A DNA stretch of 64,000 bases, taken from contig JANXCT010000002.1 of assembly GCA_025059875.1 (NCBI GenBank), positions 153,180 to 217,179 on the forward strand, written 5' to 3'. Under the pieces are notes generated by a model that had not been told where the DNA came from, did no database searches, and saw only the letters and a list, made by a program, of their open reading frames with translations. Shown here piece by piece: positions 2,423 through 40,919 of this stretch. Within the stretch, counting starts at the first letter, position 1; every line of letters starts with the position of its first letter. This stretch comes from Candidatus Kapaibacterium sp. GTDB taxonomy: Bacteria; Bacteroidota; Ignavibacteria; Kapaibacteriales; HRBIN21. The translations under genes were made by a program, and so were the position numbers.

Positions 2423-2483
2423 CCAAGCTCCCCGGTGGGGTTGTATTTTTGCAGCGTCTCGGTGTACTGCTCTGGGAACGCCG

Positions 2484-3026
2484 ATGGCAGAACTCTTTAC
2501 GCCTGCTGAGCTGGAAGAGGTGGAACGAATCAAATCGCTCTATCCGGAGCCACAGGCCGCTCTGCTGCCTGTGCTCTGGATGGTCCAGCGAAAGTACGGC
2601 TGGATTTCGCTGGAGAACATCCGAGCGGTAGCCGAACTCCTACGCCTCCCATATGCCCACGTACTCGGTGTCGTGCGTTTCTACACGATGTTCCACACCG
2701 AGCCAGTCGGACGGTACCACATCCAGGTATGCACGAACGTTTCGTGCATGCTCCGCGGCGGGGAGCGTGTGCTGGAGTACATCTCCGAGAAACTCGGTAT
2801 CCGGCACAAGGAGCGTACGGCCGATGGCCTCTTCTCGCTGGAAGAGGTAGAATGCATGGGCGCCTGCGGCGGTGCCCCGATGATCGCAATCAACGAGGAC
2901 TACTACGAGAACATCACGCTAGAGCAGGTAGACCACCTGCTGGAACGCCTTCGACGAGAGAGCACAGCCGAAAGCAGGCATGAGAGTTTACCAAACGGAC
3001 TCCCCAATGAAGAACTCGCGCCGTGA
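2484..3026 (+). CDS. nuoE: NuoE-like thioredoxin-fold [2Fe-2S] ferredoxin (NADH-quinone oxidoreductase subunit E / HoxF-N family), standalone
   Basis: MAELFTPAELEEVERIKSLYPE...LPVLW..Q...GWIS start typical of NuoE. Four Cys in NuoE spacing (CxxxxC ... CMGACGGAPM). ATG at 2484 inside the longer track ORF 2373-3026. No nuoF/nuoG follows. Confidence 0.7.
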   Translation: MAELFTPAELEEVERIKSLYPEPQAALLPVLWMVQRKYGWISLENIRAVAELLRLPYAHVLGVVRFYTMFHTEPVGRYHIQVCTNVSCMLRGGERVLEYISEKLGIRHKERTADGLFSLEEVECMGACGGAPMIAINEDYYENITLEQVDHLLERLRRESTAESRHESLPNGLPNEELAP

Positions 3027-3753
3027 CTTCCTCCGTCGATTAGCAGCTCTCACAGCTGCGGCTGCTGCTGGGGTACCAGCAACGGCACGACTCTTACCAG
3101 AGCTACTAGGACCTGATCGCCGACCCTGCGGGCGGCTCCGCATCCGCTTGAGCGACTACCCTGCACTCCAAAGTGTGAACGGCTCGGTGAAAGTCAACGT
3201 TCCCGATGCTACTGGTGCCGTTCCCGAGCGGCTCATCATCACCCGAACTGCCACAGACACCTTCGCGGCTGTAGATGACATCTGCACGCATGCCGGTTGC
3301 CTTGTCAATGTCTACCAGGCATCGCTCAGAGCGCTACCGTGCCCCTGCCACGGCTCACTCTTCCATCCGACGGGTGAGGTCATCCGCGGTCCAGCAACTC
3401 GTCCGCTACGGAGCTTCCAGACCTTCTATGAGGCCGGTAGCGACTTCGTGGAGGTAGAAATCCCAGGCTACACGTCTGTCCCGGAGCCTAGCACTGCCTT
3501 CGAGCTGACAGTCGCTCCCAACCCGGCAACGGAGTTCATTACCGTCTCCGGCACTCTGAGGGAGAGTGCCGTCCTGTCCTTCCGTATCCTCTCTACCCGA
3601 GGGCAGACAGTTGTGGAATGGCAACAATGGCTGCCAGCAGGTCCATTTAGCCTTCGGTATCCCCTTAACGGCTTCGCTCCTGGAACTTACTGGCTGCATG
3701 TCTCTGGCCGTTCTGTTCCGAGTGTTGTACAGCCCTTCTCTGTGATCCGCTGA
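3007..3753 (+). CDS. Rieske [2Fe-2S] domain protein with twin-arginine (TAT) signal and C-terminal Por/T9SS sorting domain
   Basis: TAT motif SRRDFLRRLAALTAAAAAG; Rieske box I CTHAGC and box II CPCHGS. The C-terminal ~90 aa (ELTVAPNPATEFITVSG...GTYWLHV...) match the T9SS type-A CTD pattern. Start taken at M10 of track ORF 2980-3753, overlapping the nuoE stop. Confidence 0.7.
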   Translation: MKNSRRDFLRRLAALTAAAAAGVPATARLLPELLGPDRRPCGRLRIRLSDYPALQSVNGSVKVNVPDATGAVPERLIITRTATDTFAAVDDICTHAGCLVNVYQASLRALPCPCHGSLFHPTGEVIRGPATRPLRSFQTFYEAGSDFVEVEIPGYTSVPEPSTAFELTVAPNPATEFITVSGTLRESAVLSFRILSTRGQTVVEWQQWLPAGPFSLRYPLNGFAPGTYWLHVSGRSVPSVVQPFSVIR

Positions 3754-5207
3754 TGCGGAGGTGCCGTCTCGGTTTCTTGCCTATCTCGCTCCTTGTTCTG
3801 TTTGGCCTCTCGCTATGGGGATGCGAGACTCCAGACGTTGGGGAATTCGGCAGTGATGCACCACTGGAAGTGACACCACGAGAGGTCGACTTCAGAAATG
3901 TACGCGTAGGGCAGACAGCCGAACTATGGCTCCGCATCCGTAATCGAGCAGATTCAGCCATTGTCTTGGCTCCTTCCATCACCGGAGCTGATAAAAATGC
4001 CTTCAGCATTGCGCGACAACCCAGCGGAGCACTCCGCCCCGGCCAGAGTGATAGTCTGCTACTCCGCTTCTCCCCAACCGAAGCCCGTGTGTACCAGGCA
4101 ACACTCCTCCTTGGCGGGGACAATCCCTTGAACATCCCCTTGCGCGGGACTGGTACAACAGGAGACCGAATGGAGCTCTTGGCTGTCGTTGCCTCAACAC
4201 CGCCGGAGATCGACGGCTCCGCCTCCGACGCTGTCTGGAATGCAGCTCCACCGCTCCACCTCCAGCTCTTCCAGGTAGAGCCTACGGCCAACGATCCTCG
4301 GACTCTCTCGGCAACACTGCGAGCTGCCGTGGACAACGAGTTCCTGTACCTACTCGTGGAAGTTGCCGATCCAACCCCTCACGAAACTCCCAACATCTTC
4401 CGCTTCCGCGGTGGGGACCCTGCCTCCGACGCGAATTGGACGCTGACCACAGAGGGGCAAGATGGTCTCGGCTTCATCTTCCCGATTGGAGACCCGCAAA
4501 GCGTTCGAGGTGACAGACTTGGAGAGACCTTCGCTACCATCGGCTGTGCTGTCGCCTGCCATCCTACCGCCACTACGAACGCTTACGAAGGCGGCAGCTA
4601 CCCAACCTATGGGCGGATTGACCTCTGGTACTGGAAGGCGGGGACTACAAACCCCCAGGGCTACGCTGACGACTACATTGCCGAAGGGCGCGATGGGACG
4701 ACATTCCCTGAGGAGCGCCGTGGTGATGTAGGAAATGCGTTTGAAGAGCCCAACTATCCACCACGCGGAGCCGGTCCGCTCCTACCTATCAGCATGGCTG
4801 GCGGAGACAACGGCGGATTGGACCGACGCCGCTTCCTGTGGCAGGCTACCTCTGTACCCTTCAACCCCCGAGCTCCGAACCCAGCAACTGGTCGACCCTG
4901 GGCTGCCGGCGATGTAGTTCCAGGCTGGACCCTTCGAGGCCAAGAGCATCCCTTCTCCAGCCGTGGTGACATCCAGGCCCGCGGACGCCACGCGAGTGGC
5001 CGTTGGACCATTGAACTACGGCGCCGGCTCTCCACCGGGAAGAGTGACGATGCCTCGTTTGACCGCGGGCGCTCCGTTCCCTTCAGCCTGGCGTACTTCG
5101 ACAACACGCGCAAGTATGCCGTCTTTGAATACCTCAACCTCACCTCGGCCCCTCGCCCAGGCCACTTTGGCCCTAATCCTCCGGTCATTTGGCTACACTT
5201 GCCATAA
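3753..5207 (+). CDS. Lipoprotein with N-terminal ASH/Ig-like domain and C-terminal ethylbenzene-dehydrogenase-like (EB_dh / DOMON-like) heme-binding domain
   Basis: Lipobox LSLWGC after a hydrophobic signal. Ig/ASH-like segment (EVTPREVDFRNVRVGQTAELWLRIRN...NIPLRGTG). EB_dh-type segment (PPEIDGSASDAVWNAAPPLHLQL ... Y/W-rich). Start codon ATGA-coupled to the Rieske gene stop. Confidence 0.55.
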   Translation: MRRCRLGFLPISLLVLFGLSLWGCETPDVGEFGSDAPLEVTPREVDFRNVRVGQTAELWLRIRNRADSAIVLAPSITGADKNAFSIARQPSGALRPGQSDSLLLRFSPTEARVYQATLLLGGDNPLNIPLRGTGTTGDRMELLAVVASTPPEIDGSASDAVWNAAPPLHLQLFQVEPTANDPRTLSATLRAAVDNEFLYLLVEVADPTPHETPNIFRFRGGDPASDANWTLTTEGQDGLGFIFPIGDPQSVRGDRLGETFATIGCAVACHPTATTNAYEGGSYPTYGRIDLWYWKAGTTNPQGYADDYIAEGRDGTTFPEERRGDVGNAFEEPNYPPRGAGPLLPISMAGGDNGGLDRRRFLWQATSVPFNPRAPNPATGRPWAAGDVVPGWTLRGQEHPFSSRGDIQARGRHASGRWTIELRRRLSTGKSDDASFDRGRSVPFSLAYFDNTRKYAVFEYLNLTSAPRPGHFGPNPPVIWLHLP

Positions 5208-11075: not shown

Positions 11076-11106
11076 GGTTTACGAAGCGACGCCAGCCTCA
11101 GCTTTC

Positions 11107-12573: not shown

Positions 12574-12582
12574 CTCACGAGC

Positions 12583-15455: not shown

Positions 15456-16725
15456 CGCGCTGGCTCACGCCTCTCTCTCGCACTCCCAGAGCCACGAGCA
15501 CCTGCTCAAGGATTGCGTCGTATGAAAACCGTGCAGCGTTCTCATCCGCAGCAGCTTGGCGCCACTGACAGCGCTGAGCTTCAGAAAGGGGTGCGATCGT
15601 CTGGACTGCCGTAGCAAGTGTCTCTTCAAAGCCGTGCGGCTCTTCCCAGTACCATCCCGTGCGACCTTCCTGGAGAAGGTGAAGGAGCGAAGCACGACGA
15701 GGTAACACAAGAGGAAGCCCTACTCCTAAGGACTCATTTGCTGAGATAGCCGGCTGCATCCACACACCGAGATCTGCTGCAGCCGCTAGCCGACGCGTCT
15801 GCTCCGGTGGCAAGAATGGATAGACCGCAAAGTGCTCGGGTATCGGCTGACGTTGGATCTGCTCCAGTAGCTCCCTCTGGTACCCATCCCCCAATCCACC
15901 AACCAGCACATACCGCACTGGAAGCCCGACTCGCTGCATCTTACCAACGGCAGCGATGATACGCTCAAGACCTTTTCGCGGGACAACTCGTGTGACAGTG
16001 AGGATGAGCACCTCTTCAGGCCTCACTCCAAGTTGCTCTCGAGTCTGCTGCCGCTCCAACGCGGAGAAGAAGAAGAGCTGAGGGTCATAGCCGAGCGCTA
16101 GCACTCGTGCCTTTGCCTCCAGAAGTTCTAGCTCCTCCCTATTAGCACAGCATTGCTGCAACCATTCCAGCGTTGCCGGCATATTGCAGACGAGTAACTC
16201 AGCACGGCGAATAGCACGACGATAGAACGGACGCTTCACGAGCTCAAACCCTCGATCCTGTAGCCAGCTAACAACTCGCGCCGACAATGAGTGCCGACGG
16301 CGGTACTCATGCAACTCGCTGAAGAAACACGCGATTGGCACCTGCCTCAGCTCTGCAGCCGTCAGAATTGGTACACCGAAGAGCTTTCCCACCCCCAACA
16401 GCAGAATCGCGTCAGGGCGCCACTCCACAACAGCAGAGACAACCCCACGGCTCAGCACTGCCGAGCGAAACCGAAAGGCAACCGGCAGACGCACGAGCTC
16501 GTAGCCATCCTCGCATATCCTGCCTACGGGATAAGGCCGGCGCCGTAGCCGCCGAGCACTGGAGGAGACTGCCGTGGAAGTAACTACCCGTACCGCAATC
16601 CCTTTACGGACCAAGGTCCGAGCAATCCAGACCTCCTGATACCCCACCTCGGGCATGAAGTGGCCACATACAACGGCAATTCGCATACCAAAAGCTCTCG
16701 GTAGCCTTTCGCTCCCGATGCTCAC
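15439..16725 (-). CDS. Glycosyltransferase family 4 (GT-B)
   Basis: GT-B fold motifs (MRIAVVCGHF..., C-terminal ...GVGLPLV...). Likely start at MRIAVV (16686). Confidence 0.65.
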   Translation of the reverse strand: MSIGSERLPRAFGMRIAVVCGHFMPEVGYQEVWIARTLVRKGIAVRVVTSTAVSSSARRLRRRPYPVGRICEDGYELVRLPVAFRFRSAVLSRGVVSAVVEWRPDAILLLGVGKLFGVPILTAAELRQVPIACFFSELHEYRRRHSLSARVVSWLQDRGFELVKRPFYRRAIRRAELLVCNMPATLEWLQQCCANREELELLEAKARVLALGYDPQLFFFSALERQQTREQLGVRPEEVLILTVTRVVPRKGLERIIAAVGKMQRVGLPVRYVLVGGLGDGYQRELLEQIQRQPIPEHFAVYPFLPPEQTRRLAAAADLGVWMQPAISANESLGVGLPLVLPRRASLLHLLQEGRTGWYWEEPHGFEETLATAVQTIAPLSEAQRCQWRQAAADENAARFSYDAILEQVLVALGVRERGVSQRDGKAA

Positions 16726-19352
16726 CGTTTCACGAAGAGCCGAGTCTCCACCCTCCCTCTGAGGTACACTCGGACTCCGTAGACTCCGGGTGCCCAGCCG
16801 TGGAGGTTAATGCCTGCCTTCTCCCTGCCCCTCAAGCTCTCGCGATAAACGCAGCGCCCGAGTGGATCCACAACCTCCACTGATACCACCCTCCCTCCCT
16901 CAACCAGCAGCCATACGACCTCCGTTGCAGGATTTGGCTCAAGACGCCACCGCAGAGAGCTTACCTCTTCTACGCTCGTGCGAACGAACCGATACGGATC
17001 CGAGATACTGGAGCAGCTATCCACCGTCACCTGCACGTAGTAGATGCCATCCCGCGGCGGGACGAACTCCCGGCCTGTCGCCCCAGGGATCGGTTGCTTG
17101 TTCTCATCCAGCCACTGGTTCCCTGTCAGCGCGCTCGAGACGAGCGTATCCCCGCGCTGTCCAATGACAGGCTTCGGAGGACGCGGGGCAACGGTTACAT
17201 GAACGCTATTGAGTGATCGCACCACGCCACATGCATTGCGAGCCTCCACCGTGTACCTTCCACCCTGCCAAACTCGAAGGACAGTATCCTGAGCCCTGGG
17301 AAGCGCGGTATCGTTACGGAACCACTGAAAGGCTACTCCAACCTCCCCAGCAATGCGGAGCTCTACAGTATCTCCACGGCAGAGCCGAACCCCACCTTCA
17401 GGCACAATCCTCGGCCTCCTCGGCAAGGGACGCATCGTCAGCGTAACGTTCCTCCGCCCTCGGACACTCCCACAGGCATTGTAGGCCTCCACACTGTACC
17501 GCCCCGATTGGGAAGCAGCATAGGCCGTCGCATCCTCTGCCACGACAATCGAATCACGCCACCACCGGTACCGAACCCCTGGCTGCGGCTGCAGAACGTA
17601 GAGCACAACCTGACGCCCTTCACAGAACACAGTATCGCCATCTATCTCGAGCTGCGGCTCCTGCGGACGTTGCTGAGCAGAGAGCAAGCGCCCATTATCG
17701 TTGCTGTAGGCAATCGGCTGTGAAGCTGAGACTCTGATCCGGTATTGCCCCCCAGGAGGCTGGAACGGAACGAAGACTCGCAGCCCTGTGTCTCGACGAG
17801 CCGCGACCGAATCGAGAACTAGTGGAACCTGGAAGCTTCCCCCTGCGTCGGAGAGCTCCACACGGAACATGTTGTTTGCACCAAACTCCCCGCCACGCAC
17901 ACGCCAGCGGACCAGAAGGCTGTCACCCGTACAGAGGACCGTGTCGGGCACTGCCTCCAACTCAAGGCTCAGGAGGTACCCCGATAGACGCACGAGGAGT
18001 CCATCGGCAAGTCCCGCCAGCGCCGACTGGTACGACGGAGGCTCGAGTGGGACATCGGTGCTCGTAGTACTCCCGACAAGCGCTATGTTCCCCGCGCTAT
18101 CTACGGCGATCCCCAGAGCAGCATCGCCAGCACCCCCTCCTAGTAGAAGACTCCACTGCGGCATACCCTGCCGATGGAGCTTCAGGAGGAAGCAGTCATC
18201 CCCTTCCGTAGAGCGTTGTCCTACGCCAATCTGTGGGAAATTCGAGCTGGCCGTACGTCCAGCAATGTAGAGGTTCCCCAACGCGTCCACAGCACAGCTT
18301 GTGGCGACGTCATTCTCCCCGCCGCCGAGGAAGGTCGCCCAGCGTAGCCCTCCGCTTGCTGAGAATTGGACCGCGAACCCATCCGCTCCCCCTCCAGCAT
18401 ACTGAAGCTGCCATATGGGAGTAATCGGCAAATTCTGGCTCCCTGTCATCCCTACGACGGTCACCCACCGCTCCGAGGTTACCGCGATCCCCAGGGCCCG
18501 GTCGCTCTCTGTCCCGCCATAGTAAGTAGACCAGCCCCACACGCCAAAGGGTCCAAACGAGGCAACGAAGGCATCTGTACCACCCCGCAGGACCTGCTGG
18601 AAAGCATTCCGCAGTGGGAAGTTCGAACTACTGGTCTCTCCGCAGATGTAGATGTTGCGGCGGTCATCCACACAGATCGCCGTGGCATAGTCAGGTCCGG
18701 AGCCACCGAAGTAGGTCGCCCACACCCGTGCCCCATCAGGTCGAAGCTGTAGCACAAACGCATCAGTATACCCAGCCAGTCGGTTCTGGACAGCGTTCGT
18801 GGTCACAGAAAAGTTCGTACTGCTTGTGTAGCCCACAACATTCAGCAGTCCCTGAGCATCCACCGCAACGGCTGTTGCCCCCTCCTCTCCGTTCCCACCA
18901 TAGTATGTCGCCCAAAGACGGACTCCATCAATGGAGAAGCACGCAATGAAGGCGTCGCTCCCTGCTGCTTTGGTGGACTGGAAAGCATTCGCAACGGGGA
19001 AGTCCGAACTCGCAGTCACTCCCACGACGTAAATCCTTCCTCCGCTGTCTACCGCAACCCCGAGGGCACGGTCATTGTCGCTGCCTCCTAGGTAGGTGGA
19101 CCACAAGAGAGAGCCGGAGGACGAGAACTTTGCAATAACGGCATCTTCGCGCCCCCGGTTCTGCCCCTGCCAGGCGTTGACGACCGGGAAGCTCACCCCC
19201 AAACTCCACCCAACTACCACGATTGAACCATCTGACGCTATGGCCGTTGCTCGCAGCTCATCCTGGGCTGGCGAGCCGAGATAGGTACCCCAATCAACCG
19301 TTGGCTGAGCAAAGGCCGGTAGGAAAAGGAGAAGCGTCCATGCTCTTTGCAT
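16722..19352 (-). CDS. SBBP (beta-propeller) repeat protein with C-terminal Por/T9SS sorting domain (T9SS cargo)
   Basis: More than 8 repeats of the SBBP pattern (YLGGSxxDxAxGIAVDxxGNIYVxGxTxSSxFP); Sec signal MQRAWTLLLFLPAFA. C-terminal ~80 aa (RLEPNPATEVVWL...GVYGVRVYL...) is a T9SS type-A CTD. Start set at MQRAW (19352); the track ORF extends into the tRNA. Confidence 0.7.
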   Translation of the reverse strand: MQRAWTLLLFLPAFAQPTVDWGTYLGSPAQDELRATAIASDGSIVVVGWSLGVSFPVVNAWQGQNRGREDAVIAKFSSSGSLLWSTYLGGSDNDRALGVAVDSGGRIYVVGVTASSDFPVANAFQSTKAAGSDAFIACFSIDGVRLWATYYGGNGEEGATAVAVDAQGLLNVVGYTSSTNFSVTTNAVQNRLAGYTDAFVLQLRPDGARVWATYFGGSGPDYATAICVDDRRNIYICGETSSSNFPLRNAFQQVLRGGTDAFVASFGPFGVWGWSTYYGGTESDRALGIAVTSERWVTVVGMTGSQNLPITPIWQLQYAGGGADGFAVQFSASGGLRWATFLGGGENDVATSCAVDALGNLYIAGRTASSNFPQIGVGQRSTEGDDCFLLKLHRQGMPQWSLLLGGGAGDAALGIAVDSAGNIALVGSTTSTDVPLEPPSYQSALAGLADGLLVRLSGYLLSLELEAVPDTVLCTGDSLLVRWRVRGGEFGANNMFRVELSDAGGSFQVPLVLDSVAARRDTGLRVFVPFQPPGGQYRIRVSASQPIAYSNDNGRLLSAQQRPQEPQLEIDGDTVFCEGRQVVLYVLQPQPGVRYRWWRDSIVVAEDATAYAASQSGRYSVEAYNACGSVRGRRNVTLTMRPLPRRPRIVPEGGVRLCRGDTVELRIAGEVGVAFQWFRNDTALPRAQDTVLRVWQGGRYTVEARNACGVVRSLNSVHVTVAPRPPKPVIGQRGDTLVSSALTGNQWLDENKQPIPGATGREFVPPRDGIYYVQVTVDSCSSISDPYRFVRTSVEEVSSLRWRLEPNPATEVVWLLVEGGRVVSVEVVDPLGRCVYRESLRGREKAGINLHGWAPGVYGVRVYLRGRVETRLFVKR

Positions 19353-19376
19353 CCGTTCCCCTTGCCACCGTTCTAG

Positions 19377-19450
19377 CGCGCCCGGCAGGACTCGAACCCG
19401 CAACCCCCAGATCCGAAGTCTGGTGCTCTCTCCAATTGAGCTACGGGCGC
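19377..19450 (-). tRNA. tRNA-Arg (anticodon TCG)
   Basis: Reverse complement folds as a cloverleaf: acceptor GCGCCCG/CGGGCGC, D-arm TAGCTCAATTGGAGAGAGC, anticodon loop CTTCGGA (U33, anticodon TCG), T-arm GGTTCGAGTCC. Confidence 0.8.
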
Positions 19451-19462
19451 AGCAGTGCAAAT

Positions 19463-31803: not shown

Positions 31804-32523
31804 CTACAGTCGGTGTCTCGGCTCCTTTAGCACAGAGCACCCTTCAAAGCAGAGCACGAACTCTCCTCGGAAGCGGAGCGTGCGAAAGCGTTCGAAGAGT
31901 TCGGCGAAAGTGCCGTAGTGGTGGGTCTCGTAGGGCATCGTCAGATTGCAGCCGACGTAAGCATGACGATTGGGCATGATGGCAGCAGCATCAGCCAGCA
32001 GTTGCCGAAGGCGGTAGGGAGTCTCTAGGAGAACGACTGTCCGAGGCTCTTCCGCTAAGGCCTGTAGCTGGCGGCGTCGCTCTTCTGGTTTACGGCTCAG
32101 CATCCCACCGAAGAGGAATTGGTCCGTGGAGAAGCCGCTCCGTACCAGCGCTGTGGTAATGCTCGAAGGGCCTGGGACAACGACCAACGGCAGTCCTTCC
32201 TGGAGCACCCTCCGAATGAGAAACAGCCCAGGGTCAGCAATTGCTGGCATCCCAGCGTCTGAAATCAACGCAACATCCTTGCCAGCCCGTAGGTACGAGA
32301 GGACTCGCTCTGTTGCCTCTGGCTCATTGTGCTCATTGAGGGTCTCCAGAGGCCTGTCTATTCGATGTGCCCGCAGTAAGCGGGCCCCCACTTTGAACTC
32401 CTCGCAGAAGACCACAGAGCAGCTCTTCAGCACTCGAAGCGCCCTCAGGGTAATGTCGTCTATGTCCCCAATAGGTGTGCCCACGACGTAGAGGGTACCT
32501 ACGGCGCCGGATTCAGCACCCAT
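31804..32523 (-). CDS. rsmI: 16S rRNA (cytidine1402-2'-O)-methyltransferase
   Basis: Tetrapyrrole-methylase fold with the RsmI pattern (LYVVGTPIGDIDDITLRAL...ALISDAGMPAIADPG...VPGPSS). Start at the internal Met (MGAESG). Confidence 0.75.
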   Translation of the reverse strand: MGAESGAVGTLYVVGTPIGDIDDITLRALRVLKSCSVVFCEEFKVGARLLRAHRIDRPLETLNEHNEPEATERVLSYLRAGKDVALISDAGMPAIADPGLFLIRRVLQEGLPLVVVPGPSSITTALVRSGFSTDQFLFGGMLSRKPEERRRQLQALAEEPRTVVLLETPYRLRQLLADAAAIMPNRHAYVGCNLTMPYETHHYGTFAELFERFRTLRFRGEFVLCFEGCSVLKEPRHRL

Positions 32524-34133: not shown

Positions 34134-34235
34134 CTGACACGCGCTCAGCCACAGAGGTATAGCAGCGCGCAAAATTACGCTCCACCCATAGCGTCTACCT
34201 TTTGCAGTAAGGCTATCCCACGGCCTCTCGCTGAG

Positions 34236-34933: not shown

Positions 34934-37900
34934 ATGACAAAATGCGGGCTCTCCTGCGGAATACTTGCTGCAGCACTGTCCCTACAGGCAATTGCTGAAG
35001 AGTTACGGCTTCACTGGGAATGGCGCACCCCGCAGGAGGCTCTGTTGACGATCTCTGTTCCAATCCCACTCCTGCTCCAAGCACCTGAAGGTGTACGGCA
35101 AGCAGCTCCGAACTCCCGTTGGGCTTTTCCACTCCCTGACTGGTCCCTCTACGGATTTGCCATCCCTATGGAGCTACCTCTCCAGACTACACTCCGGAGC
35201 GACATCGTGCAGTGGGAGGAACTACCGCTGCCAGCACCACTCCAGCGACGTACGTGCCAAGAATGCTCTCCTGGAGAGCCGCTTGTAGCGCAGCTTGCGC
35301 CCATCGGCTCCTCAGGGGACCGACCCGTTGTAGCGCTGCGCCTCTTGCCGTATCACCCAGTAGAGCATGGCACTCGGCTCCGTGTCGCACGTCAGCTCCG
35401 GCTCCACTTGCGCCTTCCCCAGCCTTCGACAGTTCGTGAGTCCCTAGTTCTGCTGGATTTCAATCCCTCCCGATTAGCATCTCCCCTAGCAGACGTACCC
35501 CTTTCCACCTCAGAACAGCAACTCCCTACAGCTCCCGACGGCTTTCAATACAAGCTCATCGTTCGCCGCCAGGGACTCGTTCGAGTCACAGCTCGACAAC
35601 TGCTCGATGCTGGGCTACCGCTCGCAGCTATCCCTGTAGCGACGCTCCGCCTCTGGAACCGTGGACGTGAAATTCCGCTGTACGTTTACGATCGTAACAA
35701 CAATGGCTACCTCGATGACTATCCCCCAGACCCCGACTACATTGCCTTCTTTGGTGAGCCCAATCGGCTGAACTTCCGTAACCGTGACCGCGATATGTAC
35801 CTTGACCCCGAAACGGAAGAGAATGTCTATGCCCTCACTTGGGGAGGGGGAAATGGGAAGCGGATGGTTGAGGAGTCCGGCGATATCCGCATCCCTGACC
35901 CGCGACGAGCTATAGACCTACGCGGGAAGAGTTTCCGGAGTACTGTCATCGTAGAGCACAACCGAGTCGAGGAACGCTTCGGAGCCGTAGAGGCACAAGA
36001 CCGTGATCTCCTGCTCCCCAGCTTCCAAGGGGACCAACTCTTTTGGGCCCGAGTACCGGCGAACACTAGTGTGACCCTTCCCGTCCCCTTACCCGCACCG
36101 GCGCTCCTGGCAGAGGACTCTGTACGGGTAGAGGTGATGCTATGTGGTGCCATAGCACGTCCCTTGCCGTGCCCTATTCCTGAGCATACTGCGGAGATCT
36201 ACCTCAACCGTCGGCGAATTCTCCGAGCTTCTTGGTCGGGAGCCCGTCCGTTCACTGTTCAGTCCCCTCAACACCAGATTGCTCCCATCCCAGCTTCTGT
36301 TCTCGCTGAAGCCGACAGCAGCACCATTACGGTTGCCAACATCTTTGACTGTCCCCAAGCCAGCGACCGAATTCCCAGCTTCTACGTCAACTGGGTGCGG
36401 ATCGAGTATCCACGGCTCTACGTTGCGACGAACGATGAGCTCTGGTTCTGTACTCCTCCCGGCTCCCCTCCAGGGGTTTACACCTTCGCCCTCGAGGGCT
36501 TTCAAACACCAAATGTCCTGCTCTTCCGCGCCGGCATCTCGCGCATCCTCAACTACAGTCTCGAACGGGTCCGACTGCCTTGGGGGGCCGTGCGATACAC
36601 CATCCGCTTCCAGACTTACGTTGCCTCACCGGAAGAGCTCTTCTATGCTATCGCCGTAGACAGCGTTGCCGGTCCTGCGCGAATTGTCCGTGACCTTCCC
36701 TCCAGCCTATCCCATCCTGACAACGCCGCTGATTACATGATCATCACGCACAAAGGCCTCTGGGATCGCCGTCAGCCACAGGCGAATTCACCAGACCATC
36801 CCATTCAGCGACTCCTCCGCTTGCGGCAGCAGCAGGGGCTGCGCACGATGGTTGTGGACGTTGACGACATCTACGACGAGTTCAATGACGGTATCGCCTC
36901 ACGGGATGCCATTCACCGCTTCCTGCGATTTGCATGGTTGCGGTGGCGAGTCCCTCCGCGGTATATTGTGCTTGTTGGAAATGCCACAGCCATCCCACCG
37001 CAACTATGGCAGACACGCCGCTGGGGAATGACCCCTACGGACTACACGTACGGTTGCGTGGAAGGCACCTACCAAACTCCCACAGGCGCCCTGACGGACG
37101 ATCCGATCCCTGAAATGGCCGTTGGGCGTATTCCTGCAGAATCATTGGCTGATCTGGAAGCCGTAGTGGCAAAGCTGTGGGAGATGGAGGAAGGATACGC
37201 CACGACGTACTTCCAGCCCCGTGCCCTCTTGGTAGCTGGCATCAACGGCTTCATTCACCAGACAGAACTCTTGGCAACGCGGCTCCCCTTGGGACTGTCG
37301 CAGCGCCGCCTCTACGTCCAGCCTGGCACTCCGTACACTGGACATACAGCCGAGCTCCTCCAACTGTTTGCCGATGGAGCTGCTGTCGTCAACTTCCTCG
37401 GCCACGGTGGTGGGGGTATCTGGGAAGATGCCGGGCTACTGCAGGATGAAGATGTTGAGCTCTTCTCCAACCGTGGTCGCTACCCCATTGTCTCCAGTCT
37501 TACGTGCTTCACTGGCGCCTTTGAGCAGCAAGCGGGACGCCGCGGTCTACTGAGCAGCCTCGTTGTAACACCGGGACGTGGGGCCGTCGCCGCTTGGGGG
37601 AACTCCGGCTATGGTTGGCTGGAGAATAGCTTCTTGCTGTCGCTGGCGCTCCTGGAAGCTGTCACAGCCCCCACAGGACGTCTCCAACGTCTTGGAGATG
37701 CTTTCCGTGCTGGCAAAGCCCTCTATGCCGCCCGTGCCTATGGGCTACAGAACGAGATCGTGCTCTCTATGCTCCTGCAGGCAACCCTTATCGGCGATCC
37801 AGCCCAGCTCTTGCGGCTCCCAACGGACACAGTTGAGCTTCGGCTGAGCCGTACAGCCGCTACCGCTGGCGAGGTGCTCACAGTGGTCACCTCTCTGCCG

Positions 37901-39895
37901 TTTTCCTCAGGAAGCGCCCGAGTTCTCCTTGCCGATGAGTATGGCAACGACTTGCCCGGAGGCGAGCGGGTTATCTCCCTCAATGGCCCACGGCTTAGCT
38001 TCTCGGTAACAGTCCCTGCTAACTATATCGGCACGCGCCTCTCCATTCGCCTCTACGCAGTAGAGTCTAACCGGCAACGTGCGGTCATGGGAGGGGCACA
38101 CGTCAGCACAGGTGCTGTTATTCTGGGGGAAATCCAGACCTCACCTTCACCGCCAGTAGCCGGTCAGCCTCTGGCATTGCGCATTCCCATCCGCAGCCGT
38201 ACTGCTATCCAGAGTGTGACCGCCACTGTCAACATTGCCTTCCCTGACGGTACTACAAGCTCTTTGGGACCTATGCCCTGTCAACTCGTTAGCGCCGAGG
38301 TGTACCAGACCGAGCCTCCCATCTCGGCAGCGCTCATACGGGCTGGGGCAGAGATTAGGGCAGTGTTTACGGTCCTTCTGAGCACAGGGCAGAGCATTAG
38401 CTCTCCTATGGCCATCTTCTCGGTCCCAGGGATTGCGGACCCAGCGGTTGTCCAGCCCTTAGCAGGAGACAGCTTACGCACGGCCACCCCATGGCTGCGC
38501 TGTGTCCCAACAGCACAGGGAGCACATCTTCAGGTCCACCTCTACAACTGGCGGGAAACCCCTGCAGGCAACGTCTTGGTCCGTCTGTGGCGCTCCATGC
38601 CGAACGGTCCCCCGCAACTACTGGCTGAGCAGCGTGTGGACATCCCCGGCAACGGCAGCACGGACTGGCTCTTGCGTCCACCCAGAGCTCTACAGAAGGC
38701 CTATCTCCTCTGCGAAGTCGCTAGCGATAGTCTCTCTACCGGGGGTGATCGGTTAGCGAGCAACAATCGGGCTGGAGATAGTCTTCTACTGGGCTGCTTT
38801 GCACTCTTGCCGTCCGTTGGTACTACCGACAATGGCCTGCAGCACTCCCCTGTTGGGATTGAGGGGATAGCGACTGTTGCCGTCCTCCCTGCTCAAGCTC
38901 CGGCGGCTACCGCGCTCCTGTGGATTGAGACCCTCCCCTCCACTCGGACTGTACAGCCGAACGTCCATCTCGTACGTCTTGCCGATAGTTCTGCCGCTGT
39001 GGCAGTGACGGTCTCTTCTCCAACCACGGTCGTAGCAACATTGCAGCTGTGGTACCTGCCACAGGACACCGCGCTCGTCCATGGCCTACCGGCCATCTAC
39101 CGCAAACATAGCCGCTTAGACCTCTGGGAACGCCTCCCCACCCAGCAGATTGGTCCTGGCGTTGTGCAAGCTTCCGTAGTACTTCCTGGCATCTTCGCCG
39201 TTGCGACAAGCTCAGACCGGCGTCCTCCCCAAGTTCGGATAACAGCGGAAGGACGAGCTCTCCCGGCTCGGACTGTCCTCTCGGCGAATCCCCGAATCAG
39301 CATCGTTGGCATAGATGAAAATGGGGTCTCCACCGACACCTCTACCATCCGCTTGACACTGAACGGACAACCCGTACCCGTCCAGCAGCTCAGCATCTCA
39401 GACAGTGCCCAGACACCGACTGCCACCAGCATCAGCTACCGTCCTCAGCTCCAGAGTGGGACCCATATCTTGTGTGCCACGCTCGTAGACTGCAACGGTA
39501 ATCCCAGCGAACGCACCTGCATCCAGATGGAAGTCTCCACACAGCTCGACCTGCGGTTGCTAGGGACCTATCCGAATCCTTTCCGCGAGGAGATGTTCAT
39601 CGCCTACGAGCTGCTGGGGACAAGCAGCGTCGACGAGGTAGAGCTCCGACTATACACTGCTTCGGGACGCTGCATCCGCCGGATGGTCTTCCCAACGACT
39701 TCCCCCGCGGAGGCCTTCGGATTCTTACGCGGCGGGACCGGAATCCCGACAATGCCAGGATACCATGAAATCTGGTGGGACGGCATGGACAACGAAGGCC
39801 GTCCTGTAGCAAATGGGATCTACTTCTACCGACTCCGTGTCCGGTCGGGTGACACCATTGTGGAGCGACGCGGCAGTGTGGCGCGGGTTCGCTAA
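34934..39895 (+). CDS. porU: Type IX secretion system sortase PorU (gingipain-like C25 peptidase), unusually long (1653 aa)
   Basis: Signal peptide. Peptidase C25 core (ADYMIITHKGLW, VGNATAIPP, TDYTYGCVEG, catalytic His in NFLGHGGGGIWED, Cys in SLTCFTGAF). Multiple Ig/FN3-like beta domains. C-terminal FlgD-Ig/T9SS-like domain (GTYPNPFREE...GIYFYRLRV). Immediately followed by porV. Confidence 0.75.
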   Translation: MTKCGLSCGILAAALSLQAIAEELRLHWEWRTPQEALLTISVPIPLLLQAPEGVRQAAPNSRWAFPLPDWSLYGFAIPMELPLQTTLRSDIVQWEELPLPAPLQRRTCQECSPGEPLVAQLAPIGSSGDRPVVALRLLPYHPVEHGTRLRVARQLRLHLRLPQPSTVRESLVLLDFNPSRLASPLADVPLSTSEQQLPTAPDGFQYKLIVRRQGLVRVTARQLLDAGLPLAAIPVATLRLWNRGREIPLYVYDRNNNGYLDDYPPDPDYIAFFGEPNRLNFRNRDRDMYLDPETEENVYALTWGGGNGKRMVEESGDIRIPDPRRAIDLRGKSFRSTVIVEHNRVEERFGAVEAQDRDLLLPSFQGDQLFWARVPANTSVTLPVPLPAPALLAEDSVRVEVMLCGAIARPLPCPIPEHTAEIYLNRRRILRASWSGARPFTVQSPQHQIAPIPASVLAEADSSTITVANIFDCPQASDRIPSFYVNWVRIEYPRLYVATNDELWFCTPPGSPPGVYTFALEGFQTPNVLLFRAGISRILNYSLERVRLPWGAVRYTIRFQTYVASPEELFYAIAVDSVAGPARIVRDLPSSLSHPDNAADYMIITHKGLWDRRQPQANSPDHPIQRLLRLRQQQGLRTMVVDVDDIYDEFNDGIASRDAIHRFLRFAWLRWRVPPRYIVLVGNATAIPPQLWQTRRWGMTPTDYTYGCVEGTYQTPTGALTDDPIPEMAVGRIPAESLADLEAVVAKLWEMEEGYATTYFQPRALLVAGINGFIHQTELLATRLPLGLSQRRLYVQPGTPYTGHTAELLQLFADGAAVVNFLGHGGGGIWEDAGLLQDEDVELFSNRGRYPIVSSLTCFTGAFEQQAGRRGLLSSLVVTPGRGAVAAWGNSGYGWLENSFLLSLALLEAVTAPTGRLQRLGDAFRAGKALYAARAYGLQNEIVLSMLLQATLIGDPAQLLRLPTDTVELRLSRTAATAGEVLTVVTSLPFSSGSARVLLADEYGNDLPGGERVISLNGPRLSFSVTVPANYIGTRLSIRLYAVESNRQRAVMGGAHVSTGAVILGEIQTSPSPPVAGQPLALRIPIRSRTAIQSVTATVNIAFPDGTTSSLGPMPCQLVSAEVYQTEPPISAALIRAGAEIRAVFTVLLSTGQSISSPMAIFSVPGIADPAVVQPLAGDSLRTATPWLRCVPTAQGAHLQVHLYNWRETPAGNVLVRLWRSMPNGPPQLLAEQRVDIPGNGSTDWLLRPPRALQKAYLLCEVASDSLSTGGDRLASNNRAGDSLLLGCFALLPSVGTTDNGLQHSPVGIEGIATVAVLPAQAPAATALLWIETLPSTRTVQPNVHLVRLADSSAAVAVTVSSPTTVVATLQLWYLPQDTALVHGLPAIYRKHSRLDLWERLPTQQIGPGVVQASVVLPGIFAVATSSDRRPPQVRITAEGRALPARTVLSANPRISIVGIDENGVSTDTSTIRLTLNGQPVPVQQLSISDSAQTPTATSISYRPQLQSGTHILCATLVDCNGNPSERTCIQMEVSTQLDLRLLGTYPNPFREEMFIAYELLGTSSVDEVELRLYTASGRCIRRMVFPTTSPAEAFGFLRGGTGIPTMPGYHEIWWDGMDNEGRPVANGIYFYRLRVRSGDTIVERRGSVARVR

Positions 39896-40919
39896 GTGTA
39901 TCGTAGTCCTCGGGGCCAGCATCCAACTATGGGCCGAAGAGGAGCGGTATGCCGCCGCCTTCCTCGAAATCCCCTTGGGAGCCCGGGCCCTCGGCCTCGG
40001 TACAGCCTTCACTGCTATTGCAGACGATGCCTGGGGATTCTACTGGAATCCAGCAGGCACAGCACTGACACCCCCAACAGTGCTCGTAGCCGGGATGTAC
40101 AGCTCGCAGTACGGGGCAATTGGATCACCACTGGCCCACTTCTTCCACACTGGACTGCTCCTGCCTATCTCCGGACTACGGGTTGGGGTCCACTGGGTCC
40201 GGTTCACCGCCCCTGACTTACGGGCGTATCCCGACCTGACGCGTGTCCTCTCTCCCCAGGAGCGGGAGGAGCTTGTACGGCGTGCGAGTGCTGGGGACTT
40301 CATCCCGAATGCGGATGAGGCCATCTGGATCGTGCTCGCCCGACTCCTCGTGGTACCAGTGGACTTCGGTTGGCTACGCTTCCAAGTGCCGGTCGAGTTC
40401 CCCGTAGGACTGAACATTAAGCTCCTCCACGAGCAGATTGCCGAACACCGTGCCTCGGGCATCGGGGTGGACGTTGGCGCTATGCTGCGCGTCAACCTCA
40501 AGGACATTGCCTTTGACGAGCGCTGGCCACGCCTCTCGCTTGGGGTCAATGTGCGAGACCTTGGTGGAACACGGCTGCTTTGGACCACCCAGCGACCGCA
40601 CCGTATCCCTCCCTCCGTCTCCTGGGGAGTGGCATTGACACAGCCCTTGGAGGCATGGAAACTAGAACTGACGCTGGGGTATAGCCGTGACGAGCGCTAC
40701 GGAGGGCATAACAACTACGGCATTGAAGTCCTCTATCGCCGTAGTTTTGCCCTCCGGGCCGGCACGTACCGCTCAGTGCTGACCCTTGGGGCCGGGGTTG
40801 ACGCCGGCGTTCTGACAGCTGACTACGGCTTCCTGGCAGACTCAGACACACAACTGGGGAATGTCCACCGCCTGGGCATATGTCTCCGTTTAGAGCCTCT
40901 GCTGAAGCGATTGCAATGA
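39876..40919 (+). CDS. porV: Type IX secretion system outer-membrane protein PorV (LptO)
   Basis: PorV family signature right after the signal peptide (FLEIPLGARALGLGTAFTAIADDAWGFYWNPAG). Beta-barrel amphipathic strands to the end. Start placed at GTG 39876 (20-nt overlap with porU); the in-frame ATG at 39813 would overlap porU by 83 nt. Confidence 0.75.
   Translation: MWRGFAKCIVVLGASIQLWAEEERYAAAFLEIPLGARALGLGTAFTAIADDAWGFYWNPAGTALTPPTVLVAGMYSSQYGAIGSPLAHFFHTGLLLPISGLRVGVHWVRFTAPDLRAYPDLTRVLSPQEREELVRRASAGDFIPNADEAIWIVLARLLVVPVDFGWLRFQVPVEFPVGLNIKLLHEQIAEHRASGIGVDVGAMLRVNLKDIAFDERWPRLSLGVNVRDLGGTRLLWTTQRPHRIPPSVSWGVALTQPLEAWKLELTLGYSRDERYGGHNNYGIEVLYRRSFALRAGTYRSVLTLGAGVDAGVLTADYGFLADSDTQLGNVHRLGICLRLEPLLKRLQ

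What the first reader, a model, noticed from the sequence alone, without database searches (positions are those of the whole stretch)
3007..3753. Rieske iron-sulfur protein carrying both a TAT signal and a T9SS C-terminal sorting domain
Seen directly: SRRDFLRRLAALTAAAAAG (twin-arginine), CTHAGC/CPCHGS (Rieske boxes), and a ~90-aa C-terminus with the NPATE...GxYxxxV pattern of T9SS CTDs. TAT export implies the cluster is inserted in the cytoplasm. The T9SS would then have to move a folded, cofactor-loaded domain across the outer membrane. T9SS does handle folded cargo, but redox cargo is unusual. If real, it points to an extracellular or surface-anchored Fe-S redox protein.
Basis: seen in the sequence. 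Interest (0 to 1): 0.65.

Follow-up and report, generated by a model that had tools for sequence, protein, structure and literature searches.

The report
Tat-exported Rieske protein with T9SS tail
A small iron-sulfur (Rieske) electron-carrier protein in a hot-spring Kapabacteria genome carries two export signals: one that moves folded proteins across the inner membrane and one that sends proteins out through the type IX secretion system. The pairing is conserved across a large uncharacterised family, which predicts a so-far undescribed route for putting an Fe-S protein on or outside the cell surface.

Summary
ORF 3007-3753 (+) encodes a 248-aa protein with four parts:
- an SRRDFLR twin-arginine signal (TIGR01409 23.0 bits, cutoff 16.7);
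- a bc/b6f-type Rieske domain (PF00355 44.8 bits; CTHAGC/CPCHGS);
- a disordered linker;
- an 82-aa, seven-strand C-terminal beta-sandwich.

Family-level evidence overturns that:
- 11 of 12 Kapabacteria orthologs hit the same model.
- An exhaustive search found dozens of end-to-end relatives, and 35 of 53 examined hit TIGR04183 at about its cutoff (best E 3.6e-12).
- The Kapabacteria tails align to those relatives' tails at 98.5% probability (E 2.6e-15).
- The best PDB match by sequence, and the best compact fold match, is the mirolase T9SS CTD.

The window also encodes a PorU-like sortase, two PorV/PorQ proteins and one cargo that passes the cutoff. The twin arginines are nearly invariant family-wide.

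Secretion itself is untested. I found no described T9SS cargo that uses Tat or carries an Fe-S cluster, and one prediction pipeline explicitly excludes Tat proteins. Verdict: real, with a new combination of known modules. The function is unknown; it is probably a surface or periplasmic electron carrier.

The parts
3007..3753 (+). Whole ORF: 248-aa Tat-Rieske-CTD precursor, stop codon included
   Evidence: identical protein P0001 in NCBI as 'Rieske 2Fe-2S domain-containing protein', Bacteroidota MAG
3007..3087 (+). Twin-arginine signal peptide (aa 1-27): SRRDFLR motif, a 16-residue Ala-rich h-region, and ATA just before R28 as the likely signal peptidase I site
   Evidence: TIGR01409 23.0 bits > 16.7; RR nearly invariant in 54 relatives; uncharged stretch 16 aa here, family median 17. 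The cleavage site is inferred.
3127..3465 (+). Rieske [2Fe-2S] domain (aa 41-153), bc/b6f type
   Evidence: PF00355 44.8 bits; AF2 pLDDT > 90; Foldseek best matches are Chlorobaculum Rieske 8hn2, PetC3 5cxm (TM 0.76), b6f PetC and AioB
3283..3300 (+). Rieske box I, CTHAGC (C93 and H95 are ligands; C98 is a disulfide cysteine)
   Evidence: seen in sequence; C93 nearly invariant and H95 invariant in A5; C98 co-varies with C114
3340..3357 (+). Rieske box II, CPCHGS (C112 and H115 are ligands; C114 is a disulfide cysteine; S117)
   Evidence: seen in sequence; C112 invariant and H115 nearly invariant
3466..3504 (+). Flexible interdomain linker (aa 154-166)
   Evidence: AF2 pLDDT below 50 at residues 159-163, pTM 0.51; lowest conservation apart from the segment after the signal peptide (36% mean pairwise identity)
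3505..3750 (+). Divergent T9SS type-A C-terminal sorting domain (aa 167-248): seven beta strands, PNPA (171-174), GTYWLHV (226-232), terminal strand FSVIR
   Evidence: PF18962 21.1 bits and TIGR04183 16.8 bits, both sub-threshold; hit in 11 of 12 orthologs; hhalign 98.5%, E 2.6e-15 against relatives' CTD tails; PDB sequence top hit is mirolase CTD 8qb1, E 2.4e-4; fold TM 0.72 to 8qb1; tail-only AF2 pLDDT 94; dN/dS 0.21-0.29
3753..5207 (+). Downstream gene whose start overlaps the Rieske stop: lipoprotein with an Ig domain and an EB_dh-type heme domain; candidate redox partner
   Evidence: TGATG stop/start overlap; PF09459 85.2 bits; invariant lipobox Cys24 and invariant C265-x3-C269-H270
2481..3026 (+). 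Upstream NuoE-like thioredoxin-like [2Fe-2S] ferredoxin whose end overlaps the Rieske start; no signal peptide seen in its N-terminus
   Evidence: PF01257 186 bits, TIGR01958 184 bits; adjacent to the EB_dh gene in all Kapabacteria examined, with or without the Rieske gene
34934..39895 (+). PorU-like C25 peptidase, the presumed T9SS CTD-removing sortase of this organism
   Evidence: PF01364 222.9 bits; NF033707 T9SS_sortase 167.7 bits, below its 420 cutoff; followed directly by a PorV-family gene
39813..40919 (+). PorV/PorQ-family outer-membrane protein next to the PorU-like gene (start codon uncertain)
   Evidence: NF033709 85.4 bits, cutoff 90
48051..49058 (-). Second PorV/PorQ-family protein
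   Evidence: NF033709 91.1 bits > 90
16722..19460 (-). T9SS cargo in the same window whose CTD passes the curated cutoff (SBBP propeller + Ig_7 + CTD); shows that the organism uses type-A CTDs
   Evidence: TIGR04183 31.2 bits > 23, at aa 842-911 of 912

Best explanation
The gene encodes a small soluble Rieske [2Fe-2S] electron-transfer protein built for two-step export.

Proposed route, all inferred:
1. The cluster is inserted and the Rieske domain folds in the cytoplasm.
2. The SRRDFLR signal sends the folded holo-domain through Tat.
3. The short, Ala-rich signal is probably cleaved after ATA27 rather than kept as a membrane anchor.
4. The bc1/b6f-type disulfide (C98-C114) forms in the periplasm.
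5. The C-terminal seven-strand beta-sandwich, a divergent type-A T9SS sorting domain on a flexible linker, is recognised by the PorV/SprA translocon.
6. The folded domain of roughly 130 residues crosses the outer membrane.
7. The PorU-like C25 sortase encoded 31 kb away removes the CTD. The Rieske domain is then left surface-attached or released.

Once there, it most likely acts as a one-electron carrier. In this thermophilic Kapabacteria clade its likely partner is the EB_dh-type heme lipoprotein encoded immediately downstream.

Shown by computation: the domain architecture, its conservation across a large family, homology of the tail to T9SS CTDs, purifying selection on the tail, and T9SS genes in the same genome.

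Inferred: signal cleavage, actual T9SS transit, final location, the redox partner and the physiological role.
For: Architecture:
- Rieske PF00355 44.8 bits and TAT TIGR01409 23.0 bits both pass.
- AF2 gives a confident Rieske domain, a disordered linker and a seven-strand tail.

Tail is a CTD homolog:
- Por_Secre_tail is the only C-terminal model hit. It matches 11 of 12 Kapabacteria orthologs and none of 6 Verrucomicrobiota relatives.
- The exhaustive profile search finds dozens of 240-285-aa proteins matching positions 3-248 in one stretch, many with textbook QNYPNP...GxYFYRL...K tails.
- 35 of 53 examined hit TIGR04183 at E <= 6e-5, best 3.6e-12.
- hhalign of Kapabacteria tails against those tails: 98.5%, E 2.6e-15, 81 columns.
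- The top PDB sequence hit of the tail profile is the mirolase chain 8qb1, described as 'C-terminal domain of mirolase from Tannerella forsythia'. It is also the best compact fold match, TM 0.72.
- Longer relatives P0049 and P0054 keep Tat-Rieske at the N-terminus and a GA-passing CTD at the extreme C-terminus, with Ig repeats between. That is the behaviour expected of a terminal sorting module.

The signals look functional:
- RR is nearly invariant across 54 sequences.
- The h-region is short, with a median of 17 uncharged residues.
- Tail dN/dS is 0.21-0.29.

Machinery: a PorU-like sortase, two PorV/PorQ proteins and a threshold-passing CTD cargo are in the same window.

Plausibility: T9SS is described as transporting folded proteins (PMC9251779).

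Partner: TGATG overlap with the EB_dh lipoprotein gene. Rieske and EB_dh evolve faster (53-69% identity) than their cytoplasmic neighbours (85-95%), as envelope proteins often do.
Against: - This sequence fails both curated CTD cutoffs and the Pfam TAT cutoff.
- According to T9GPred, all 102 experimentally verified T9SS cargos have Sec signals and none has a Tat signal. There is no precedent for the route.
- bc1-type Rieske Tat signals are typically uncleaved anchors (PMC8047123). Cleavage here is inferred only from h-region length and an AxA-like site.
- The Kapabacteria tail carries clade-invariant EWQQ and RYPL motifs that are not part of the CTD consensus. This hints at an additional or different role.
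- A non-homologous beta-rich tail sits at the same position in Verrucomicrobiota, a phylum that to my knowledge lacks T9SS. A C-terminal beta domain may therefore serve the Rieske function itself.
- The EB_dh gene pairs ancestrally with the NuoE-like gene and occurs without the Rieske gene in other Kapabacteria. Rieske-CTD genes elsewhere have no conserved neighbour. The partner assignment rests on overlapping reading frames in one clade only.
- Tat genes were not looked for in this genome.
Confidence: 0.6

Rival explanations
1. Periplasmic Rieske protein. Tat exports it and it stays in the periplasm, either soluble or held by an uncleaved signal anchor. The C-terminal beta-sandwich descends from a T9SS CTD but now serves as a docking or structural domain, for example for the EB_dh lipoprotein, without T9SS-dependent secretion.
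For: - CTD scores are sub-threshold in this clade.
- The clade-invariant EWQQ and RYPL motifs lie outside the CTD consensus.
- A parallel Tat-Rieske-beta-domain architecture with a non-homologous tail exists in Verrucomicrobiota.
- All verified T9SS cargos are Sec-dependent.
- Stand-alone periplasmic Rieske proteins exist; PetC3 (5cxm) is among the closest folds.
Against: - Homology to relatives' CTD tails is end to end, 98.5% over 81 columns.
- The tail sits at the extreme C-terminus on a disordered linker, as in known cargos (PMC4804311).
- P0049 and P0054 keep the CTD terminal even when Ig repeats are inserted.
- T9SS machinery is present.
- The tail type tracks the two lineages named: a CTD in Kapabacteria and a different tail in Chthoniobacterales.
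Confidence: 0.27
2. Iron-sulfur subunit of a membrane-bound bc1/b6f-type or arsenite-oxidase-type complex, anchored by its Tat signal, with an incidental extra domain.
For: The best Rieske sub-family hits are PetC, bc1 and AioB models, and the fold matches point the same way. It has CTHAGC/CPCHGS with the disulfide cysteines.
Against: - All equivalog scores are far below their cutoffs (52 vs 250; 42 vs 97; 31 vs 96).
- No cytochrome b or molybdopterin subunit gene is adjacent in the window or in six syntenic genomes.
- The h-region is only 16 uncharged residues.
- A related Kapabacteria genus is reported to use alternative complex III (PMC6338057).
Confidence: 0.04
3. T9SS cargo that does not work as an electron carrier. 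The Rieske fold would be secreted as a metal- or ligand-binding or sensing module, or without its cluster, and the RR motif would not confer Tat dependence.
For: No conserved redox partner across the wider family. One relative, P0048, has lost the first Cys ligand.
Against: The four ligands are invariant or nearly so, and the disulfide pair co-varies, as expected for functional Rieske centres. RR is nearly invariant with a canonical S/T-RRxFLK context. To my knowledge no periplasmic Fe-S assembly pathway exists, so a Sec route would yield apo-protein.
Confidence: 0.07

Closest known systems
T9SS type-A CTD cargo proteins (for example P. gingivalis RgpB, T. forsythia mirolase, F. johnsoniae cargos); models TIGR04183 / PF18962
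   Same: An extreme C-terminal ~80-residue, seven-strand Ig-like sandwich on a disordered linker. PNP motif near the first strand, GxY motif on the penultimate strand, basic residue at the end. The mirolase CTD is the best match by both sequence profile and fold. PorU- and PorV-like genes are in the genome.
   Different: The N-terminal signal is Tat rather than Sec, whereas all 102 verified cargos are Sec. The passenger is a cofactor-bearing Fe-S redox domain rather than a hydrolase, adhesin or motility protein. This clade's CTD falls below the curated cutoffs and has its own EWQQ and RYPL invariants.
bc1/b6f-type Rieske proteins (PetC, QcrA/FbcF) and arsenite oxidase small subunit AioB
   Same: Tat targeting, the CxHxGC...CxCHGS boxes with disulfide cysteines and the same box spacing, and the fold.
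   Different: No cytochrome b or AioA partner gene. Short h-region instead of a long signal anchor. An extra C-terminal sorting domain. Scores far below every equivalog cutoff. Box II is followed by Phe where, from memory, bc1 and b6f proteins have the potential-raising Tyr.
Stand-alone Rieske proteins outside bc complexes: Synechocystis PetC3 (5cxm) and Kuenenia kuste4569 / kustd1480 soluble Rieske domains
   Same: Small Rieske domains that are not part of a canonical bc complex, and among the closest structural matches (5cxm TM 0.76, 30% identity).
   Different: None of these is described with an outer-membrane secretion signal, and none carries a CTD.
Tat-then-T2SS two-step secretion (from memory: for example Pseudomonas aeruginosa PlcH)
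   Same: A folded Tat substrate is handed to an outer-membrane secretion system that accepts folded cargo. This is the logical precedent for the proposed Tat-then-T9SS relay.
   Different: A different outer-membrane machine and a different targeting signal. This comparison rests on recalled knowledge and was not tested here.

Membership tests
Rieske [2Fe-2S] domain (PF00355) | HMM score at or above the Pfam gathering threshold | tested here: met
   44.8 bits vs GA 20.3, aa 64-137
Rieske [2Fe-2S] domain (PF00355) | Cys-X-His ... Cys-X-X-His cluster ligands | tested here: met
   C93, H95, C112 and H115 are present, and each is invariant or nearly invariant in 54 relatives
Rieske [2Fe-2S] domain (PF00355) | Actual [2Fe-2S] cluster (EPR / UV-vis) | not testable with these tools
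   Requires purified protein
bc1/b6f complex Rieske subunit | Equivalog HMM cutoff (NF045928, TIGR01416, NF050121) | tested here: not met
   52.4 vs 250; 42.3 vs 97.4; 43.5 vs 275
bc1/b6f complex Rieske subunit | Adjacent cytochrome b gene | tested here: not met
   The neighbours are a NuoE-like gene and an EB_dh gene in the window and in six syntenic genomes. By contrast, L033 shows a true Rieske-cytochrome b pair.
bc1/b6f complex Rieske subunit | Disulfide-forming cysteines in boxes I and II | tested here: met
   C98 and C114 are present; across the family they are present or absent together
Tat substrate | S/T-R-R-x-F-L-K motif followed by a moderately hydrophobic h-region | tested here: met
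   S-R-R-D-F-L-R at aa 4-10; 16-residue Ala-rich h-region; RR nearly invariant
Tat substrate | TIGR01409 score at or above cutoff | tested here: met
   23.0 vs 16.7
Tat substrate | PF10518 score at or above GA | tested here: not met
   15.7 vs 22.7. This model has only 21 positions, so a miss is weak evidence.
Tat substrate | TatA/TatC present in the genome; export abolished by RR-to-KK or tat deletion | not tested
   No tat genes were sought. Only 64 kb of the genome is available, and the genetic test is experimental.
T9SS type-A CTD cargo | TIGR04183 / PF18962 score at or above the curated cutoff | tested here: not met
   16.8 vs 23 and 21.1 vs 27 for this sequence. Among wider-family relatives, 35 of 53 hit TIGR04183 at E <= 6e-5, which I estimate corresponds to the cutoff. 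P0049 and P0054 pass Pfam GA.
T9SS type-A CTD cargo | Homology of the tail to accepted CTDs | tested here: met
   hhalign A2 vs A7: 98.5%, E 2.6e-15, 81 columns. The top PDB sequence hit is mirolase CTD 8qb1, E 2.4e-4.
T9SS type-A CTD cargo | About 70-90-residue, seven-strand beta-sandwich at the extreme C-terminus after a flexible linker | tested here: met
   AF2 places strands across residues 167-246, with tail-only pLDDT 94 and linker pLDDT below 50. TM 0.72 to 8qb1. Generic sandwiches also match, so the fold alone does not discriminate.
T9SS type-A CTD cargo | T9SS machinery encoded by the organism | tested here: met
   PorU-like C25 peptidase, two PorV/PorQ-family proteins and a threshold-passing CTD cargo are in the window. 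SprA and GldKLMN were not seen because only 64 kb was available.
T9SS type-A CTD cargo | N-terminal Sec signal peptide (a feature of all 102 verified cargos) | tested here: not met
   The signal is Tat-type. The T9GPred rule 'no Tat signal' would exclude this protein.
T9SS type-A CTD cargo | Secretion and CTD removal that depend on T9SS and PorU | not testable with these tools
   Experimental

The most novel reading that the evidence does not exclude
FCB-group bacteria display or release a Rieske iron-sulfur protein outside the outer membrane through a Tat-then-T9SS relay. That would be the first Tat-dependent, Fe-S-cofactor-bearing T9SS cargo. In thermophilic Kapabacteria it would work with the EB_dh-type (possibly CxxxCH heme-c) lipoprotein encoded immediately downstream as a non-multiheme extracellular electron-transfer module. 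The non-homologous tail at the same position in Verrucomicrobiota could be an analogous, still unrecognised sorting module for a different export system.
Probability: 0.25. Interest if true: 0.82.

Novelty: new variant of a known kind. Interest (0 to 1): 0.62.

Why it matters
In the literature I could search, T9SS cargo is treated as Sec-dependent, and at least one prediction pipeline discards any protein with a Tat signal. A conserved family with nearly invariant twin arginines, intact Rieske ligands and genuine type-A CTDs argues that such filters miss a class of cofactor-loaded cargo, and that T9SS may accept Tat-delivered holo-proteins.

If the Rieske domain does reach the cell surface, it would add an Fe-S protein to the known extracellular electron carriers, which to my knowledge are mainly multiheme cytochromes and flavins. 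That would open a testable route to redox chemistry at the surface of Bacteroidota-related bacteria in hot-spring mats and elsewhere.

Practically, the result also shows that curated CTD cutoffs under-call cargo in Kapabacteria. Three of the four C-terminal tails I scored in this lineage are sub-threshold.

Tried and rejected
- A profile built only from the Kapabacteria tails, searched against all ORFs of the window and eight loci, found just one weak extra hit: the C-terminus of a 710-aa protein in L001, E 0.005. It was too divergent to show modularity on its own.
- The word-indexed homolog search suggested a tiny family of 21 hits. That was misleading. The exhaustive HMM search found 12,355 hits at E <= 1e-3 and dozens of full-length relatives.
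- I considered that the Kapabacteria and Verrucomicrobiota tails might be one ancestral domain, which would argue against a sorting role. Rejected: hhalign probability 0.35%.
- I considered that P0049's middle region might be an EB_dh domain, giving a Rosetta-stone link to the neighbour. Rejected: only Ig-repeat similarity.
- I looked for a conserved redox partner in five contexts outside Kapabacteria and found none.
- EB_dh relatives in other Kapabacteria lack the Rieske gene, so the pairing is clade-specific.
- Algoriphagus (L023) has a Tat/lipobox Rieske without a CTD, and L033 is an ordinary bc-complex Rieske. Neither is the same architecture.
- Taxonomy of the wider family could not be obtained: no names, AFDB50 unavailable, and 'Candidatus Kapabacteria' absent from the taxonomy copy.
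- The EB_dh protein has no PDB sequence relative by phmmer.
- Literature searches for Rieske + T9SS, Tat + T9SS cargo, and extracellular electron transfer + T9SS returned nothing relevant.
Full report
**1. The observation**

ORF 3007-3753 (+) is real and translates to 248 aa. The public annotation of the identical protein (P0001, 'Rieske 2Fe-2S domain-containing protein', Bacteroidota MAG) starts 27 nt upstream at 2980. Orthologs begin at MKNSRR, MGTSRR or MKLTRR, so 3007 is the better start.

Single-sequence HMM results were mixed:

| Model | Score (bits) | Cutoff | Result |
|---|---|---|---|
| Rieske PF00355 | 44.8 | 20.3 | passes |
| TAT TIGR01409 | 23.0 | 16.7 | passes |
| TAT PF10518 | 15.7 | 22.7 | fails |
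| Por_Secre_tail PF18962 | 21.1 | 27 | fails |
| Por_Secre_tail TIGR04183 | 16.8 | 23 | fails |

The question became whether the tail is a divergent CTD or just a beta-sandwich.

**2. The organism has a T9SS, and its CTDs are under-called**

The same 64-kb window encodes:
- a 1653-aa PorU-like C25 peptidase (PF01364 223 bits; NF033707 168 bits, below that model's own cutoff);
- a PorV/PorQ-family gene immediately after it (85.4 bits vs cutoff 90);
- a second PorV/PorQ protein (91.1 bits, above 90);
- a 912-aa beta-propeller protein whose last 70 residues pass TIGR04183 (31.2 vs 23).

Other plainly C-terminal tails in this lineage score below threshold: 13.7 bits for the PorU-like protein's own tail and 16.2 bits for a 710-aa protein in L001. 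A sub-threshold score is therefore usual for this clade and is not evidence of absence.

**3. Close family**

The word-indexed search found about 12 full-length orthologs at 50-91% identity. The genome scan placed them in Kapabacteria/Kapaibacterium MAGs, several with hot-spring-type sample names. All share the PNPA...GxYWL...FxV[LV]R tail. Por_Secre_tail is the only model that hits the C-terminus. It does so in 11 of 12 of them and in none of the six members of a second, Chthoniobacterales (Verrucomicrobiota) clade.

That second clade has the same Tat signal and Rieske core, followed by a different beta-rich tail of about 95 aa. The two tail types are not detectably homologous (hhalign 0.35%).

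**4. Wider family: the decisive step**

An exhaustive HMM search of 1.84 billion cluster representatives with the Kapabacteria alignment returned 12,355 hits at E <= 1e-3. Among the top 150 were dozens of 240-285-aa proteins that match profile positions 3-248 in a single stretch.

Many of them carry textbook type-A CTDs, for example '...LAQNYPNPASGQTTIEYTI...GVYLYRMETSTGYTQTRKLTVI'. Of 53 such relatives, 35 hit TIGR04183 at E <= 6e-5, best 3.6e-12. I estimate from the scores and E-values that E 6e-5 corresponds to about the 23-bit cutoff.

Two longer relatives (P0049 and P0054, about 600 aa) keep Tat-Rieske at the N-terminus and a GA-passing CTD (42.4 and 34.2 bits) at the extreme C-terminus, with Ig repeats in between. 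A terminal sorting module should behave this way.

A profile of the Kapabacteria tails aligns end to end with a profile of 32 textbook tails from these relatives: 98.5% probability, E 2.6e-15, 81 columns.

Independent support comes from the PDB. The Kapabacteria tail profile's best sequence hit is the 88-residue mirolase chain 8qb1 (E 2.4e-4), described as 'C-terminal domain of mirolase from Tannerella forsythia'. The tail-only AF2 model (pLDDT 94, seven strands) has that same structure as its best compact fold match (TM 0.72/0.71). Generic sandwiches also score in the fold search, so the fold alone would not be decisive.

**5. The other two modules are genuine**

Across 54 sequences with 29% mean column identity, both arginines are nearly invariant in an S/T-RRxFLK context. 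The four cluster ligands are invariant or nearly so.

The two extra cysteines that form the bc1/b6f-type disulfide are present or absent together, for example CTHAGC/CPCHG against CTHQGV/CPEHG. That covariation is expected of working Rieske centres.

The AF2 full-length model gives a Rieske domain at pLDDT above 90, a disordered linker (residues 159-163, pLDDT below 50) and pTM 0.51, so the two domains are not rigidly packed. The closest folds are Chlorobaculum Rieske, PetC3 (TM 0.76), b6f PetC, Kuenenia Rieske proteins and AioB.

It is not a bc-complex subunit. Equivalog scores are far below cutoff and no cytochrome b gene is adjacent. A related Kapabacteria genus is reported to use alternative complex III (PMC6338057).

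**6. Anchor or cleavable signal?**

bc1-type Rieske Tat signals are uncleaved anchors (PMC8047123). Here the uncharged stretch after the RR motif is 16 residues (LAALTAAAAAGVPATA), bounded by Arg on both sides and ending in A-T-A. The family median is 17. This favours a cleavable Tat signal, but it is an inference: no signal-peptide predictor was available.

**7. Selection**

Within Kapabacteria, mean pairwise identity is 67% for the Rieske domain, 51% for the tail and 36% for the linker. A crude Nei-Gojobori dN/dS is 0.06-0.13 for the Rieske domain and 0.21-0.29 for the tail. The tail is under purifying selection but evolves faster than the core. That fits a functional sorting domain and argues against a decaying relic.

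Unexplained: the clade-invariant EWQQ and RYPL motifs in the tail are not part of the CTD consensus.

**8. Context and likely partner**

The Rieske stop codon overlaps the start codon of the downstream gene (TGATG). That gene encodes a lipoprotein with an invariant lipobox Cys24, an Ig domain and an EB_dh-type heme domain (PF09459, 85 bits). Its family has an invariant C-x3-C-H motif.

The upstream gene, whose end overlaps the Rieske start, is a stand-alone NuoE-like [2Fe-2S] ferredoxin. The AtuA-DUF2279-NuoE-Rieske-EB_dh-HGD order is conserved in all six Kapabacteria genomes that carry the Rieske gene.

In other Kapabacteria, however, the NuoE-like and EB_dh genes are directly adjacent with no Rieske gene between them. 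Rieske-CTD genes outside Kapabacteria have no conserved neighbour. The Rieske gene therefore looks like a clade-specific insertion into an older NuoE-like/EB_dh pair. The Rieske-EB_dh partnership is plausible but supported only by the overlapping reading frames in this clade.

**9. Comparison with what is known**

T9SS is described as moving folded proteins whose N-terminal signals are Sec-type (PMC9251779). T9GPred derives the rule 'Sec signal, no Tat signal' from 102 experimentally verified cargos (bioRxiv 10.1101/2023.03.31.535141). Full-text searches for Rieske + T9SS, Tat + T9SS cargo, and extracellular electron transfer + T9SS found no description of this architecture. No NCBIfam model is specific for the family.

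The parts are all known kinds. The combination (a Tat signal and an Fe-S passenger on a T9SS CTD) appears undescribed, and it is conserved widely enough to be more than a one-off fusion.

**10. Verdict**

- Architecture confirmed: confidence about 0.9.
- Genuine Tat-then-T9SS secretion of a holo-Rieske domain: best explanation, about 0.6.
- Periplasmic retention with a repurposed CTD-derived domain: main rival, about 0.27.
- Physiological role: unknown. A one-electron carrier at the cell surface or in the outer periplasm, possibly paired with the EB_dh heme lipoprotein, is the most likely reading.
- Novelty: new variant of a known kind.
- Interest: 0.62.

Noticed in passing
window 3753-5207 (+): The EB_dh-domain lipoprotein downstream has a family-invariant C265-x3-C269-H270 motif (GCAVACH), plus conserved K295 and H471. 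This could be a variant CxxxCH covalent heme-c site in a fold usually associated with heme b.
   Followed up: partly
window 2481-3026 (+); L055 4469-4963, L057 4431-4907, L058 4509-4982: A stand-alone NuoE-like thioredoxin-like [2Fe-2S] ferredoxin, with no NuoF or NuoG nearby, sits immediately upstream of the EB_dh lipoprotein gene in every Kapabacteria genome examined, with or without the Rieske gene. A cytoplasmic ferredoxin paired with an exported heme lipoprotein is an odd conserved couple.
   Followed up: partly
window 34934-40919 (+) and 46996-49058 (-): T9SS-related genes: a very long (1653 aa) PorU-like C25 peptidase followed directly by a PorV/PorQ-family gene, and a second PorV/PorQ gene next to an NHL-repeat protein. 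All but one score below the NCBIfam cutoffs, so the Kapabacteria T9SS parts are divergent.
   Followed up: partly
L007 7833-8741, L008 800-1609; P0013-P0018 and at least 22 cluster representatives: A parallel family in Verrucomicrobiota (Chthoniobacterales) has the same Tat signal and Rieske core but a different ~95-aa beta-rich C-terminal domain ending ...TVYVD...GFF(A/S)V.... It has no Pfam or NCBIfam match and is not homologous to the T9SS CTD. It could be an unrecognised sorting or docking domain.
   Followed up: partly
P0047, P0064, P0073, P0078, P0099 and others: Related Tat/lipobox proteins of about 260-310 aa carry two Rieske domains in tandem. P0047 (379 aa) and P0078 (461 aa) show three Rieske stretches each, and P0078 also has Big_2 Ig domains. 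Multi-Rieske exported proteins appear uncharacterised.
   Followed up: no
wider family members such as P0096, P0142, P0145, P0150, P0152, P0154: Many textbook-CTD members have a conserved A-[AT]-C-P-H-x-x-L-G-[KR] motif right after the Tat h-region. It resembles a lipobox and raises the possibility of Tat-exported lipoproteins that also carry a CTD. The window protein lacks this Cys.
   Followed up: no
window 16722-19460 (-) and 9102-16725 (-): The 912-aa SBBP beta-propeller + Ig_7 protein is the only cargo in the window that passes TIGR04183. By the look of the translations alone, it lies next to a run of glycosyltransferase and asparagine-synthase-like genes that could be a surface-polysaccharide cluster.
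   Followed up: no
window 32499-34262 (-): An Endonuclease I domain protein (PF04231, 95 bits) with an N-terminal Ig-like domain. The CTD tail profiles also weakly hit a 75-aa PDB chain named 'Endonuclease I' (8glk_D), so nucleases of this kind may be T9SS cargo. This protein's own C-terminus did not hit a CTD model.
   Followed up: no
L061 6001-7584: Two Rieske-CTD-family paralogs sit in tandem in one metagenomic genome. L063, from a related lineage, shares the flanking genes but has a single copy.
   Followed up: no
window 3007-5207 vs flanks: Across Kapabacteria, the Rieske (53-63% identity) and EB_dh (66-69%) proteins diverge much faster than their neighbours AtuA, HGD and ACAD (85-95%). 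This fits envelope or surface exposure.
   Followed up: yes
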